Source: a phage
Length of the DNA stretch: 64,000 nt
Strand: one strand, 5' to 3'
NCBI GenBank assembly: GCA_036253495.1
Contig: GCA_036253495.1_4125.1
Shown here piece by piece: positions 21,501-26,871 of this stretch (position 1 is the first letter of the stretch; every line of letters begins with the position of its first letter). Made by a program: the position numbers and the translations under genes. Below the pieces are notes generated by a model. That model saw only the letters and a list, made by a program, of their open reading frames with translations. It was not told the DNA's origin and did no database searches.

Positions 21501-21507
21501 GGATATC

Positions 21508-22125
21508 ATGACAACATCACAAAAGTACTGGTGGATTTTGGGACACCCTGAATTTATCAATAAAGACTACGTTGATGCTCGCATTGATGTTGAGCCACAC
21601 GATGTATGTCCCATCACCAATCGTATTGAAGATTATCCGGTACTGAATACAAAAACACAGTACTGGATCGAAATGCTAACTCCGTTTTTCGATGAAGACG
21701 AAGGGAAGTTCGTTCGTGGACATGAGTACGAGTTGGATTGTGGTGGTGATACATATGAAGAAGCAATTGATAATTTATACACCAAGATCCTAGAAAAGTA
21801 TGGTGATTACACACAAGAAGAAGCGGAAGCTAAGTATGATGCTGTACATCAGCGTGTAGTGACGAAAAGTGCTTTTCCTTCATCAATGTTCCAACCAGAA
21901 GAACTTCGTAACACATGGGAGAACTCAAAATTATCTGAAATTGAACTTGATTATATTCCAGGTGATATTGAAAACATTAAAGGTACAATAAAAGCCTTGA
22001 AAGAATTCCTCAAAACTTGTACAATAGAAGAACAAGAAGAGGCAAACAAACATTTACAATCAGAGGAATGTAAACTATGGGTGCTTGAGGAATCACTTAG
22101 AAAAGGTATAGACTACAACATATGA
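21508..22125 (+). CDS. hypothetical protein
   Basis: 205 aa ORF. Confidence 0.45.
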   Translation: MTTSQKYWWILGHPEFINKDYVDARIDVEPHDVCPITNRIEDYPVLNTKTQYWIEMLTPFFDEDEGKFVRGHEYELDCGGDTYEEAIDNLYTKILEKYGDYTQEEAEAKYDAVHQRVVTKSAFPSSMFQPEELRNTWENSKLSEIELDYIPGDIENIKGTIKALKEFLKTCTIEEQEEANKHLQSEECKLWVLEESLRKGIDYNI

Positions 22126-23554: not shown

Positions 23555-24496
23555 ATGCAAATAGATAAATTATATACGGACGTAACTAACTTCCTCAACC
23601 AGAGTAACGCTGATTTAACAAATGAAAATGCAAATAAAGACGCTAAATGTGTTAATACACATCGTGATTTATTGGCAGGTATTCTTTCTAAACATTATTC
23701 CCAAGATGTGATTCCTGATGAATTGATGAAGTGGCATAATGAAGGTTACGGTCATATTCATGATTTAGACTATTACATTAGCCCATTAACAAACTGTTGT
23801 TTAGTTAATTATCCTGATATGCTTGCTAATGGCTTCATGATTGGTTGTGCCAAGATTGAAGAACCAAAAAGCTTTGGGGTAGCTTGTACAGTACTAACAC
23901 AGATTGTTCAGGCTGTGGCAAGTTCACAGTACGGTGGTCAGTCGTTGGCTCACATTGACACTGGCCTTGCACCATATGTACAAAAGTCATGGGATAAACT
24001 TCTAGAAAAACAAAAGAAATACAATCTTAGTACTGAATTCATCGAAGATGAGTTGCGTAAGGAAGTTTATGACGGTTGTCAAACAATTCTATATCAAACA
24101 AACTCAATGATCAGTACTAATGGTCAGGCTGCGTTCATTTCTTTGAGTTTAGGATTAGGTACATCTAAATTTGAAAAACTAATCACTGAACAATATTTGA
24201 AAGTACATGAAAATGGACTAGGTAAAGATAAGATTACTCCAGTATTTCCTAAAGTAATATTCTTTCTTCAGGATGGAATTAATATGAATACCAATGATAC
24301 TAACTATGATCTTAAACAGTTAGCTATGCGTTGTGCATCAAAAAGAATCTATCCAGACTTTGTTTCTGTACCATTGAACCATAAAGTAACTGGAAGTACC
24401 AGTACTGCTGTTACTCCTATGGGATGCAGAAGCTTCTTAGGTAAATGGGAAGATGAAAATGGCAACGAACAGTACAATGGCCGTTTCAATTTGGGT
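23555..24496 (+). CDS. nrdD: anaerobic ribonucleoside-triphosphate reductase NrdD, exon 1
   Basis: N-terminal NrdD-like region ending ...PMGCRSFLGKWEDENGNEQYNGRFNLG, matching the E. coli NrdD segment PMGCRSFLG...NLG recalled from memory; exon end placed at T24496. Confidence 0.72.
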
Positions 24497-25666
24497 AGAC
24501 ATACATGCCCCATTGCTGAGTGATCAGTAATTGCAAACACGTTAACATGCTGGAACCCCCTAAAGCCATAAACACTACAACGCAATCTTAATAGATAAAC
24601 GTGAATGTTACGAGAGTAGAAAAAAGTTTTATGGATATATAATAAGTTGTAAATCATATTATATGTACAATGGGAAATCAGCAGCCAAGCCATCATTAAT
24701 ATAATGGTGGAAGGTTCAACGAGTATAATACGTGACTCTAATATTAAAACTTCCATAAATAATATTTTATGGAGGATATATAATGAGAAAAGGAAGTATA
24801 TATAAAATAGAATGTATAGTAACTAATAAAGTTTATATTGGACAAACCGTTTTATATCCACCGATGAAAAGATGGGTGGAACACTGCCAAAACAATGATG
24901 AAAAATCATGTATTAGTAAAGCTATTAAAAAATTTGGTTTTGAAAATTTCACATTTCAAATTTTAAAAACTAATATTGATTTAAATAATCTTAATGATGA
25001 AGAAATAAAATATATTGAAATTTATGATAGTTATAAGAATGGTTACAACTCAACATTAGGTGGTCACCAAACCTTTAATGGAAGTAAAATAACTGAACTT
25101 GATGCTATAAAAATTATAGAATATATTAAATCATATAAAGATCTTTCATTCGTAGAAATAGCAAAAACTTTAAATGTTCCATACGGCTGTGTAAGTGATA
25201 TAAATTGTGGCGAAACTTGGTATCAAATAAATGAAACATACCCTATTAGAGATAACAAAAGAAATAAGATTGAAGATAATATAGATTCAATTTATGAGTT
25301 ATTGAGAAATGGTGTTTCTAGTATAGAAATTGCAAAAATATATAATGTTTCAAATGTCACCATTTGTAACGTTAATAATGGAACAATCTATCGAAACGAA
25401 TCAGTTGAATACCCAATTTTTAAACCACAAAATTCATCAAAACGACATTCTATTGAAATAGTTTCTAAGATTATTGATATGTTAATTAATACAGATAAAA
25501 ATTATTCTGAAATTGCAAAATGTTTAAATGTAGGAAGAAAAACTGTTGCAAATATCAATAACGGTTCTGGATATAAAGAACTATCAAATGAACTTGGTTA
25601 TATATCATTTCCTCTTCGTTAGAGTATGGTGTACTCTAATCCTTCATGAAAGTGAAGGTACAAATG
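24497..25666 (+). mobile_element. group I intron interrupting nrdD, carrying a GIY-YIG homing endonuclease ORF
   Basis: Exon ends in U; P-like ATGCTGGAA (24546), Q-like AATCAGCAGCC (24675), R-like GTTCAACGAG (24713); GACTCTAA (24735) pairs with TTAGAGT (25621) as P7; P9-like hairpin CCTTCA-TGAAAG-TGAAGG; terminal G at 25666; spliced product reads GRFNLG|VVSINLP in frame. Confidence 0.65.
24783..25622 (+). CDS. GIY-YIG homing endonuclease (intron-encoded)
   Basis: N-terminal IYKIECIVTNKVYIGQT (GIY-x10-YIG); SD GGAGG upstream; located inside nrdD intron. Confidence 0.8.
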   Translation: MRKGSIYKIECIVTNKVYIGQTVLYPPMKRWVEHCQNNDEKSCISKAIKKFGFENFTFQILKTNIDLNNLNDEEIKYIEIYDSYKNGYNSTLGGHQTFNGSKITELDAIKIIEYIKSYKDLSFVEIAKTLNVPYGCVSDINCGETWYQINETYPIRDNKRNKIEDNIDSIYELLRNGVSSIEIAKIYNVSNVTICNVNNGTIYRNESVEYPIFKPQNSSKRHSIEIVSKIIDMLINTDKNYSEIAKCLNVGRKTVANINNGSGYKELSNELGYISFPLR

Positions 25667-26530
25667 GTTGTCTCAATCAACCTACCGCTAATTGCTCTTG
25701 AAAGCACTACTGATGGTGATTTCTTTGATAAGATAGATGAGCATATGAACATTGCATACAGAGCACAGATGAACCGTGTAGAGCGTTTAAAAGGTACTAA
25801 GGCTAAACAGAACCCGATTCTGTTCATGGAAGGTGCTCTTGCACGTCTTGATGCAGAAGAAACTATTGACAAACTCTTCTACGATGGTTATGCTAGTATT
25901 AGTATTGGTTATGTAGGATTAGTTGAATGTTCAGAGATTTTGACTGGTTCAATCAGTAAAGAGTTCTGTATGTCAGTACTGAATTATATGAAAGTCAAAT
26001 GCGATGAGTTCAAAAAAGAGAGTAACATAGCTTTTAGTCTATATGGAACCCCAGCAGAGTCACTTTGCTACAAATTTGCACGTTGCATCGAATCTAAGTA
26101 CCCTTCAGTACTAAAACGTGATTACATCACAAATTCCTTCCATCAACCAGTATGGGTAGAAAGTTCACCATTTGATAAGTGGAGTTACGAAGAGGGCTTT
26201 GCTTACCTCAGCAATGGAGGAAACATCAGTTATGTGGAATCACCCAACCTAAGTAACAATATTCAAGCACTTGAGACTTTAGTCAATTACGCTTACACAA
26301 AGATTCCATATTTTGGCATCAACCAGCCAATTGACCAGTGTTTCGAGTGTGGGTATAAAGGTGAGTTCAGTGTAGATAAACACGGTTTTCATTGTCCAGT
26401 ATGTGATAATCGCAATGAGAAGACAATCTCAGTGATTCGTCGTGTTTCTGGATATTTGGGGAACCCATCGTCTCGTGGATTCAACAAAGGCAAACAACAA
26501 GAATGTTGTGAGCGTATACAACACAAATAA
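25667..26530 (+). CDS. nrdD: anaerobic ribonucleoside-triphosphate reductase NrdD, exon 2
   Basis: VVSINLPLIALE...; C-terminal Zn ribbon CFECG...CPVCDN and glycyl-radical motif RRVSGYLG. Confidence 0.75.
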   Translation, partial: VVSINLPLIALESTTDGDFFDKIDEHMNIAYRAQMNRVERLKGTKAKQNPILFMEGALARLDAEETIDKLFYDGYASISIGYVGLVECSEILTGSISKEFCMSVLNYMKVKCDEFKKESNIAFSLYGTPAESLCYKFARCIESKYPSVLKRDYITNSFHQPVWVESSPFDKWSYEEGFAYLSNGGNISYVESPNLSNNIQALETLVNYAYTKIPYFGINQPIDQCFECGYKGEFSVDKHGFHCPVCDNRNEKTISVIRRVSGYLGNPSSRGFNKGKQQECCERIQHK

Positions 26531-26538
26531 GGTACATT

Positions 26539-26871
26539 ATGGATTTAAAGCCAATTGTAGTTAACAAATATAAAGAACCATATGATGTGTATATTGGTCG
26601 TGGGTCTAAATGGGGAAATCCATTTACCCACATTAATGACAAACAAACAAAGGCAGAGTTTATAGTTCCGACACGAGAAGAGTCGATTGAGAAGTTCAGA
26701 GAGTATCTTATCCAAAGAATTGAAAATGGTGAGGTTACTATCGAAGAACTACTTGAATTGGCTGGGAAGCGTCTTGGGTGCTTTTGTAAGCCAAAATCAT
26801 GTCATGGTGATGTTCTTGTAGAAATAGTGAGTGCAATATTAGATGAATTACCAGACGATAATCAAGGATGA
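26539..26871 (+). CDS. hypothetical conserved protein (CxC...C.H motif)
   Basis: 110 aa; YIGRGSKWGNPF and LGCFCKPKSCHGD motifs; family not assigned. Confidence 0.45.
   Translation: MDLKPIVVNKYKEPYDVYIGRGSKWGNPFTHINDKQTKAEFIVPTREESIEKFREYLIQRIENGEVTIEELLELAGKRLGCFCKPKSCHGDVLVEIVSAILDELPDDNQG

What the first reader, a model, noticed from the sequence alone, without database searches (positions are those of the whole stretch)
23555..26530. nrdD split by a roughly 1170-nt group I intron carrying a GIY-YIG homing endonuclease
Two ORFs encode the N- and C-terminal parts of anaerobic RNR NrdD (glycyl-radical motif RRVSGYLG and Zn ribbon in the second). Joining after T24496 and before G25667 gives GRFNLG|VVSINLP in frame, matching the E. 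coli NrdD segment as I recall it. The intervening sequence has group I hallmarks: exon ending in U, P-like ATGCTGGAA, Q-like AATCAGCAGCC, R-like GTTCAACGAG, a P7 pairing GACTCTAA/TTAGAGT split around the endonuclease ORF, a P9-like hairpin and a terminal G. This parallels the known intron-plus-GIY-YIG arrangement in T4 nrdD, but here the surrounding gene order is not T4-like.
Basis: partly seen in the sequence, partly recalled or inferred. Interest (0 to 1): 0.55.

Follow-up and report, generated by a model that had tools for sequence, protein, structure and literature searches.

The report
Self-splicing intron with endonuclease in nrdD

Summary
Alignment to intronless nrdD genes of related Asteriusvirus phages (121Q, A4, Ecwhy_1) places a 1170-nt insertion at window 24497-25666. 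Joining the exons gives an 1806-nt, 601-codon nrdD of the same length as the intact genes. The insert has a complete group I ribozyme core (P1-P9, U.G at the 5' splice site, terminal G) and a 279-aa GIY-YIG plus triple-HTH endonuclease.

One detail is wrong. P7 is GAGUAUA/UGUACUC.

The same intron and a homologous endonuclease occupy the same codon position (GRFNxG|VV) in five other sequences, four of them from very different phage contigs. Pairing there is kept through compensatory changes (P3 30/30, P8 41/42). The intron is 96% identical to that of phage TH47, while the exons are about 82% identical. This indicates horizontal spread.

It is not the T4 nrdD intron. The site differs (T4 G313/V314 versus about residue 180), P7.1/P7.2 are absent, the ORF is in another loop, and the endonuclease shows no detectable similarity to I-TevII.

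Verdict: a real, unannotated new member of a known kind. Interest is modest.

The parts
23555..24496 (+). nrdD exon 1 (codons 1-314). The reading frame runs 9 codons into the intron and stops at TGA 24521-24523.
   Evidence: Pfam NRDD 1-283/562, E = 1.5e-74. The end is fixed by alignment to intronless 121Q nrdD.
24497..25666 (+). Group I intron, 1170 nt
   Evidence: It is the single gap in the alignment with intronless nrdD. Rfam RF00028 gives a 3'-truncated match of 26.9 bits, E = 3.7e-5. Covariation supports the core.
24493..24510 (+). P1: exon GGGU plus A24497 pairs with the internal guide UGCCC (24506-24510). U24496.G24507 is the wobble pair at the 5' splice site.
   Evidence: RNAalifold on three introns. 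All six intron-bearing alleles end exon 1 in GGGT, whereas intronless alleles have AGGT, TGGC or AGGC.
24513..24530 (+). P2 hairpin UUGCUGA-GUGA-UCAGUAA (GNRA loop)
   Evidence: TH47 has a compensatory A-U to C-G change. L006 has a wholly different 7-bp stem with a GUAA loop.
24538..24542 (+). P3 5' strand CACGU (pairs with 24730-24734)
   Evidence: Rfam alignment. Paired 30/30 in six introns with four different helix sequences.
24548..24553 (+).
24558..24674 (+). P5 (CCC/GGG) with a multi-helix extension of about 110 nt that contains an A-rich stretch (GAAAAAAG)
   Evidence: The same extension motifs (CUACAACG...ACGUGAAUG...GAAAAAA) occur in related introns such as L011 and L028.
24678..24683 (+).
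24684..24715 (+). P6 (GCC/GGU) and P6a (CCAUCAUUA/UAAUGGUGG)
24716..24727 (+).
24730..24734 (+). P3 3' strand ACGUG
24735..24741 (+).
   Evidence: The Rfam model places P8 here. Paired 41/42 in six introns.
24750..24775 (+). 10-bp hairpin CUUCCAUAAA/UUUAUGGAGG that buries the endonuclease Shine-Dalgarno sequence (GGAGG 24771-24775)
   Evidence: Fold energy -12.6 kcal/mol, z = -2.9. T4 intron endonucleases are described as regulated in this way (PMC2988022). The function here is inferred.
24783..25622 (+). Homing endonuclease gene, 279 aa: N-terminal GIY-YIG domain plus three tandem HTH modules. The stop codon TAG 25620-25622 lies in the P8 3' strand.
   Evidence: Pfam GIY-YIG scores 26.8 bits against a cut-off of 22.6, with several HTH families. 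PHROG 7168 'homing endonuclease', E = 9e-28. The I-TevI catalytic domain is the only PDB hit. Y7, Y18-I-G, R30, H34, E74 and N89 are invariant in 8 homologs.
25619..25625 (+). P8 3' strand UUAGAGU
25630..25636 (+). P7 3' strand UGUACUC (the 'S' element)
   Evidence: The same GGUGUACUCUAAUC motif occurs in ORF-less relatives that pass Rfam's gathering score.
25641..25658 (+). P9 hairpin CCUUCAU-GAAA-GUGAAGG
   Evidence: A GAAA loop is also present in L006, L033 and L034.
25666..25666 (+). Terminal (omega) G, the last intron nucleotide
   Evidence: All six homologous introns end in G.
25667..26530 (+). nrdD exon 2 (codons 315-601, with the glycyl-radical motif and Zn ribbon)
   Evidence: Pfam NRDD 280-562/562, E = 7.9e-85, and Gly_radical. 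The start is fixed by alignment.

Best explanation
Window 24497-25666 is a mobile group I intron inserted in the nrdD gene of an Asteriusvirus-type E. coli jumbo phage.

Splicing (inferred). After transcription through nrdD, the RNA folds into the P1-P9 ribozyme. An external guanosine attacks after U24496, which is held by the U.G pair of P1. The freed exon 1 then attacks after the terminal G25666. The two exons are joined into one mRNA that encodes a 601-aa NrdD.

The endonuclease (cleavage, homing and regulation are all inferred). Loop L8 holds an independently translated 279-aa endonuclease with a GIY-YIG domain and three HTH modules. By analogy with I-TevI-type enzymes, it cuts intronless nrdD alleles in co-infecting phages near the GRFNLG|VV codons. 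Repair from the intron-bearing copy then inserts the intron together with a few flanking exon bases (homing). Its ribosome-binding site is buried in a hairpin, which probably limits translation from unspliced precursor.

Shown here: the exact insertion, the ribozyme core with covariation, the endonuclease domain and its catalytic residues, the patchy distribution, and the horizontal-transfer signature.
Inferred: self-splicing, cleavage, homing and regulation.
For: 1. Exact empty site. Phages 121Q, A4 and Ecwhy_1 have an uninterrupted 1806-nt nrdD. The window has one 1170-nt insertion, and the joined exons are also 1806 nt and in frame.
2. Ribozyme match. When the search is cut at the ORF, Rfam Intron_gpI aligns model positions 1-169 to window 24487-24745 (26.9 bits, E = 3.7e-5). 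This assigns P1-P6, the J6/7-P7 sequence, P3' and the start of P8.
3. ORF-less relatives. Introns that share the Q...R core motif pass the Rfam gathering score at full length, at 55-61 bits.
4. Independent fold. RNAalifold on ORF-deleted window, TH47 and L006 recovers P1, P2, P4, P5, P6, P7, P8 and P9, with 18 compensatory pairs.
5. Covariation. In six introns at the same nrdD site, P3 pairs 30/30, P8 41/42 and P7 42/42. Registers slid by 1-3 nt give much less.
6. Same site in distant genes. The same intron with a homologous endonuclease in L8 lies at the same codon position in NrdD genes that are only 32-41% identical for L006/L007. L033-L036 carry it at the same GRFNxG site.
7. Endonuclease. 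It passes the Pfam GIY-YIG cut-off, matches a PHROG homing-endonuclease family, and keeps invariant Y, Y-I-G, R, H, E and N residues.
8. Mobility signature. Only 1 of 37 related phage records (TH47) has the intron. The intron is 96.0% identical between the window and TH47, while exons are 81-82.5% identical. Every intron-bearing allele ends exon 1 in GGGT, as P1 requires, whereas intronless alleles do not.
Against: - There is no RNA or biochemical evidence, so splicing and cleavage are inferred.
- The whole-window Rfam search at gathering threshold found nothing, and an E-value search over the whole intron also missed it. The match appears only when the 877-nt L8 insert is cut away, and at 26.9 bits it is below the family's 50-bit gathering score.
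- P10 is weak or absent.
- An alternative hairpin, UUAGAGUAUG/UACUCUAA (25619-25641), could compete with P7 and P8.
- An in-frame ATG at 25646 could in principle start a separate C-terminal polypeptide.
Confidence: 0.93

Rival explanations
1. nrdD is truly split into two genes by a free-standing GIY-YIG endonuclease cassette. This would resemble the mobE split of nrdA in phage Aeh1. The two NrdD fragments would be translated separately and assemble without splicing.
For: An in-frame ATG at 25646 precedes exon 2 by 7 codons. Public annotation lists the exon-1 ORF as a separate 322-aa NrdD protein. Split RNR genes with free-standing endonucleases are documented in phages (PMC3653736).
Against: - The 286 nt upstream and 44 nt downstream of the ORF form a complete group I core. 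The core is conserved with compensatory changes in six homologs.
- There is no Shine-Dalgarno sequence before ATG 25646, and that ATG lies inside the P9 stem.
- The insertion boundaries are precise to the base, with a U.G pair and a terminal G.
Confidence: 0.04
2. It is a decayed group I intron that no longer splices, or whose endonuclease is inactive, leaving nrdD as a pseudogene.
For: Nothing direct. T4 I-TevIII is a precedent for an inactive intron endonuclease (PMC2988022). The alternative 3' hairpin could trap the RNA in a misfolded state.
Against: - All core helices are fully paired.
- The exons are intact and in frame.
- The endonuclease ORF is full length and keeps every invariant catalytic residue.
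- nrdG immediately downstream is intact.
- Near-identical copies occur in other phage contigs of about 350 kb.
Confidence: 0.03

Closest known systems
Phage T4 nrdD (sunY) group I intron with I-TevII
   Same: It interrupts the same host gene (the class III RNR large subunit). [quoted passage not shown]
   Different: - Insertion site: T4 after about codon 180 (AFQAYE|YEVNTLF); here at T4-equivalent G313|V314.
- T4 has a P7.1/P7.2 insert and lacks the long P5 extension. Here J7/3 is only UAAU.
- The T4 ORF lies 3' of P9; here it is in L8.
- There is no detectable similarity between the endonuclease and I-TevII.
T4 td intron with I-TevI
   Same: The endonuclease is built the same way, with an N-terminal GIY-YIG catalytic domain followed by small DNA-binding modules. 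The I-TevI catalytic domain is the only hit among solved structures.
   Different: The host gene is different. The sequence similarity is weak (E = 0.11). The DNA-binding part here is three tandem HTH repeats. The ORF location also differs: to my recollection the td ORF lies in a P6 loop.
Metagenomic nrdD-site introns (L006/L007/L008, L033, L034, L035/L036) and phage TH47
   Same: They share the insertion codon, the ribozyme architecture (P2 with a GNRA loop, P5 extension, GAGUAUAAU-P3', ORF in L8, P9 with a GAAA loop) and a homologous endonuclease of about 280-300 aa, 37-96% identical.
   Different: The host NrdD proteins are only 32-41% identical where this was measured (L006/L007), and some carry an ATP-cone, an intein or group II intron RT genes. 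P2, P3, P8 and P9 have different sequences. As far as I could find, none of these has been described in the literature.
Group I introns that split nrdD in Jug (jumbo gut) phages
   Same: These are jumbo phages whose nrdD is fragmented by group I introns and endonucleases. Splicing there is supported by metatranscriptome reads (PMC12880540).
   Different: Those phages are predicted to infect Bacteroides or Phocaeicola. Their introns are reported to average about 206 nt. I did not test whether any lies at this site.

Membership tests
Group I intron (Rfam RF00028) | P1 formed by the end of the 5' exon and an internal guide sequence, with a U.G wobble pair at the splice site | tested here: met
   GGGU|A (24493-24497) pairs with UGCCC (24506-24510). 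The pairing is conserved in three aligned introns, and GGGT ends exon 1 in all six.
Group I intron (Rfam RF00028) | Conserved core P3-P8 with the P3/P7 pseudoknot and the P/Q/R/S sequence elements | tested here: met
   Rfam alignment covers P1 to the P8 5' strand. RNAalifold recovers P4-P9. Pairing is P3 30/30, P7 42/42 and P8 41/42 in six introns, with slid-register controls much lower.
Group I intron (Rfam RF00028) | Terminal guanosine (omega G) at the 3' end of the intron | tested here: met
   G25666. All six homologs end in G.
Group I intron (Rfam RF00028) | Covariance-model score at or above the gathering threshold (50 bits) | tested here: not met
   There were no hits at the gathering score in the window. 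The 3'-truncated match scores 26.9 bits. The 877-nt ORF insert in L8 splits the model. ORF-less relatives with the same core score 55-61 bits, and T4 nrdD, used as a positive control, scores 105 bits.
Group I intron (Rfam RF00028) | Guanosine-dependent self-splicing | not testable with these tools
   This needs an in vitro splicing assay or RNA-seq.
T4-type subgroup IA2 phage introns | P7.1/P7.2 hairpins between P7 and P3' | tested here: not met
   T4 nrdD shows an insert of about 40 nt there. The window has only UAAU (24726-24729). That P7.1/P7.2 defines IA2 is from my own knowledge.
T4 nrdD intron / I-TevII lineage | Same insertion site in nrdD and a homologous endonuclease | tested here: not met
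   The sites are about 134 codons apart. BLASTP against I-TevII gives E = 0.6.
GIY-YIG homing endonucleases (Pfam PF01541) | GIY-YIG domain above the curated cut-off, with conserved Tyr (GIY), Tyr-Ile-Gly, Arg, Glu and Asn | tested here: met
   26.8 bits against a cut-off of 22.6. It aligns to I-TevI residues 2-90. I6, Y7, Y18, I19, G20, R30, H34, E74 and N89 are invariant in 8 homologs.
GIY-YIG homing endonucleases (Pfam PF01541) | Site-specific double-strand cleavage of the intronless allele | not testable with these tools
   This needs a cleavage assay on A4 or 121Q nrdD DNA.

The most novel reading that the evidence does not exclude
This may be the E. coli jumbo-phage representative of an undescribed, widely distributed intron-endonuclease lineage specific to nrdD. 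It has kept the same ribozyme, the same L8-resident GIY-YIG enzyme and the same target codons across phages whose NrdD proteins are less than 45% identical. The target codons, GRFNxG|VV, lie two codons after the residue equivalent to T4 Asn311. This would be long-term co-evolution of ribozyme and endonuclease rather than repeated independent invasion. In Asteriusvirus phages the intron may also act as a competition weapon by cutting the nrdD of intronless co-infecting relatives such as A4. An intron endonuclease of the jumbo phage PhiPA3 was shown to act in this way (PMC11620839).
Probability: 0.3. Interest if true: 0.5.

Novelty: new member of a known kind. Interest (0 to 1): 0.3.

Why it matters
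- Annotation. The public record lists a truncated 322-aa NrdD and a generic 'GIY-YIG nuclease family protein', and TH47 is unannotated. The correct reading is one 601-aa NrdD plus an intron and a homing endonuclease.
- A second nrdD insertion site. This site lies next to conserved catalytic-region codons. It is shared by a metagenomic family of introns, so it provides a natural set for studying how a GIY-YIG enzyme and a ribozyme co-evolve with one target.
- An experimental system. The window phage (intron-plus) and phage A4 (intronless) are about 98% identical over the 20 kb compared. They form a ready pair for measuring homing and marker exclusion in jumbo phages.
- It does not change any general concept. 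Phage RNR genes are known intron hot-spots (PMC3653736, PMC2988022).

Tried and rejected
- Rfam, whole window at gathering threshold: no hit.
- Rfam, E-value search over 24300-25900 with the ORF included: no group I hit, only chance matches. The match appeared only after the search region was cut at the ORF.
- Identity with the T4 nrdD intron: rejected on site, structure and endonuclease.
- Group II intron or intein: rejected. No Rfam group II hit was significant (14 bits, E = 2.8). The ORF is in its own frame with its own start and stop codons, and it has no reverse-transcriptase or intein domain.
- Operator-like similarity between the homing site and the sequence upstream of the endonuclease ORF, as described for I-TevI: the best match was 9 of 15, not meaningful.
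- Endonuclease paralogs elsewhere in the window: none.
- Literature check that T4 Asn311 and Cys290 are catalytic: the search returned nothing. That remark rests on my own recollection. Only the numbering (C290, N311, G313|V314) was computed here.
- Papers on introns in Asteriusvirus: none relevant.
- The group I intron database paper does not mention nrdD or phages.
- Subgroup assignment (IA1, IA3 and so on): not possible with the tools. I established only that P7.1/P7.2 are absent and that a long P5 extension is present.
- MAFFT misaligned P2 of L006 by one base. Helices were therefore counted from fixed sequence anchors in a script rather than with the count of structure pairs.
Full report
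**What is in the sequence.** Three ORFs on the + strand fill 23555-26530.

- ORF 23555-24523 matches the first half of Pfam NRDD (profile positions 1-283 of 562).
- ORF 25646-26530 matches the second half (280-562) plus the glycine-radical domain.
- ORF 24783-25622 has a GIY-YIG domain and several helix-turn-helix matches.
- Downstream lie a DUF4326 gene and the activase nrdG.

**Exact boundaries.** The region matches Asteriusvirus-type E. coli and Salmonella jumbo phages. Most of them, including 121Q, PBECO4, A4 and Ecwhy_1, have a single uninterrupted 1806-nt nrdD.

- A three-way alignment gives one gap in 121Q, at window 24497-25666, which is 1170 nt.
- Joining 23555-24496 to 25667-26530 gives 1806 nt and 601 codons with one terminal stop. 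It reads GRFNLG|VVSINLP across the junction.
The boundary cannot be shifted, because the bases on either side differ.

**Is it a group I intron?**

- Rfam found nothing in the whole window at gathering threshold, and nothing in an E-value search across the whole insert.
- As a positive control, the T4 nrdD intron scored 105 bits. In T4 the ORF lies outside the core.
- When I cut the search at the ORF (24470-24745), RF00028 aligned model positions 1-169 as a 3'-truncated match (26.9 bits, E = 3.7e-5). The alignment assigns P1, P2, P3, P4, P5, P6, the J6/7-P7 sequence, P3' and the start of P8.
- The 877-nt ORF-bearing insert therefore sits in loop L8. This explains why the full model failed.

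**Helix assignments in window coordinates.**

| Element | Coordinates | Sequence |
|---|---|---|
| P1 | 24493-24497 / 24506-24510 | GGGU\|A / UGCCC |
| P2 | 24513-24530 | GUGA loop |
| P3 | 24538-24542 / 24730-24734 | CACGU / ACGUG |
| P4 | 24548-24553 / 24678-24683 | UGCUGG / UCAGCA |
| P5 | 24558-24560 / 24672-24674 | CCC / GGG, with an extension of about 110 nt |
| P6, P6a | 24684-24715 | |
| P7 | 24721-24727 / 25630-25636 | GAGUAUA / UGUACUC |
| P8 | 24735-24741 / 25619-25625 | ACUCUAA / UUAGAGU |
| P9 | 25641-25658 | GAAA loop |
| omega G | 25666 | |

Its 'P7' is really P8.

**Relatives and covariation.**

- A core pattern (AATCAGCAGCCAAG...GGTTCAACGAGTA) found 2 viral contigs, 24 metagenome contigs and 1 genome contig.
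- Several of these are ORF-less introns that pass Rfam's gathering score at full length, at 55-61 bits. They carry the same J8/7-P7' motif, GGUGUACUCUAAUC.
- L006, L007 and L008 carry the intron and a homologous endonuclease at the same place in a very different nrdD, which is 32-41% identical and reads GRFNQG|VV.
- A protein search with the endonuclease found about 35 homologs of roughly 287 aa at 39-52% identity. The three I looked up all lie in a split nrdD at the same site: L033, L034 and L035/L036.
- RNAalifold on ORF-deleted window, TH47 and L006 sequences recovered P1, P2, P4-P9 independently, with 18 compensatory pairs.
- I defined helices by fixed sequence anchors rather than by complementarity. 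On that basis the six introns pair 30/30 in P3 (four different helix sequences), 41/42 in P8 and 42/42 in P7. With the 3' strand slid by 1-3 nt the counts are 8-19/30, 11-18/42 and 6-30/42.
- This is strong evidence for a functional ribozyme with the endonuclease gene in L8.

**The endonuclease.**

- The 279-aa product passes the Pfam GIY-YIG cut-off (26.8 bits against 22.6).
- It matches PHROG 7168 'homing endonuclease' (E = 9e-28).
- Its only hit among solved structures is the I-TevI catalytic domain.
- In an alignment of eight family members, I6, Y7, Y18-I19-G20, R30, H34, E74 and N89 are invariant. These line up with the I-TevI catalytic residues, whose numbering I recall from memory.
- The C-terminal 180 residues are three tandem HTH modules.
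- A GGAGG Shine-Dalgarno sequence lies 7 nt before the ATG and is buried in a 10-bp hairpin (24750-24775; -12.6 kcal/mol; z = -2.9). The same arrangement is described for the T4 intron endonucleases (PMC2988022). Its role here is inferred.

**Evidence of mobility.**

- Only TH47, among 37 matching phage records, carries the intron.
- The closest genome, phage A4 (98.3% identical over 20 kb), lacks it.
- Window and TH47 introns are 96.0% identical, while their exons are 81-82.5% identical.
- All six intron-bearing alleles end exon 1 in GGGT, as P1 requires. Intronless alleles have AGGT, TGGC or AGGC. This is consistent with co-conversion or with selection for P1 pairing.
- The window's nrdD exons are a mosaic. 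The first 690 nt are A4-like, the last 600 nt are Ecwhy_1-like, and the roughly 500 nt around the junction are unlike either.

**Comparison with the known.**

- Phage RNR genes are classic intron targets, and nrdD is reported as the most often split (PMC3653736). Jumbo gut phages have nrdD genes split by group I introns, with splicing supported by RNA reads (PMC12880540).
- The T4 nrdD intron is only an analogue:
  - It lies after about codon 180, whereas this site corresponds to T4 G313|V314, two codons after N311 and 23 after C290.
  - It has a P7.1/P7.2 insert and its ORF lies 3' of P9.
  - I-TevII shows no detectable similarity to this endonuclease.
- I found no paper on introns in Asteriusvirus phages.
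- Public annotation treats the pieces as separate proteins.

**Verdict.** The finding is real and correctly interpreted, apart from the P7/P8 label and the closeness of the T4 parallel. It is a new, unannotated member of a well-known kind: a mobile group I intron with a GIY-YIG homing endonuclease in a phage RNR gene. It belongs to a wider nrdD-site family that appears undescribed. Splicing, cleavage and homing remain inferred.

Noticed in passing
window 25619-25641: The P8 3' strand (UUAGAGU) can pair either with P8 5' (ACUCUAA) or with the P7 3' strand plus J7/9 (UACUCUAA). The second option gives a stable local 10-bp hairpin that would compete with both P7 and P8. The feature is identical in TH47. 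By eye I saw no comparable hairpin in L006, and the other relatives were not folded. It could be a folding trap or a switch linked to endonuclease translation.
   Followed up: partly
window 26530-26539; L004 5316-5678 (phage A4): Phage A4 has an extra 120-aa gene annotated 'pyruvate formate-lyase' between nrdD and the DUF4326 gene. It is probably a small autonomous glycyl-radical protein. The window has only 8 nt there. TH47 also has about 550 extra nt at that place.
   Followed up: no
window 23555-26530: The nrdD exons are a recombination mosaic. Bases 1-690 are 96-100% identical to A4 in 60-nt windows. The last 600 or so are 93-100% identical to Ecwhy_1. The middle 500 or so, around the intron site, are about 80% identical to every phage compared.
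   Followed up: partly
L033 591-2450 and 5166-6858; L035 4-2634; L036 766-2634: Other nrdD genes that carry this intron are invaded again. L033 has two reverse-transcriptase (RVT_1) genes flanking the nrdD fragments, which look like group II introns. L035 and L036 have an intein with a LAGLIDADG domain in exon 1.
   Followed up: no
L011 7410-8373: A related ribozyme in a different, unidentified host gene carries a homolog of this endonuclease (30% identity). There the gene lies downstream of P9 instead of in L8, and a P7.1-like hairpin is present. This suggests the endonuclease gene has moved between positions or introns.
   Followed up: partly
L012 1596-1832, L025 1392-1718, L015 401-687: These metagenomic contigs hold a second full-length group I intron (Rfam 54-75 bits) in addition to the one found by the core pattern.
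   Followed up: no
L034 about 2930-2945; L035 about 2965-2975: In the distant family members, TGnTATAAT (extended -10-like) motifs lie in L8 just upstream of the endonuclease gene. The window has no such motif. It has CATAAATA, which resembles a T4 late promoter, inside the hairpin that buries the Shine-Dalgarno sequence. Whether the endonucleases have their own promoters is untested.
   Followed up: no
window 21504-21508; L004 625-1478: Phage A4 has an 854-nt segment (hypothetical gene A4_484) that is absent from the window at this point.
   Followed up: no
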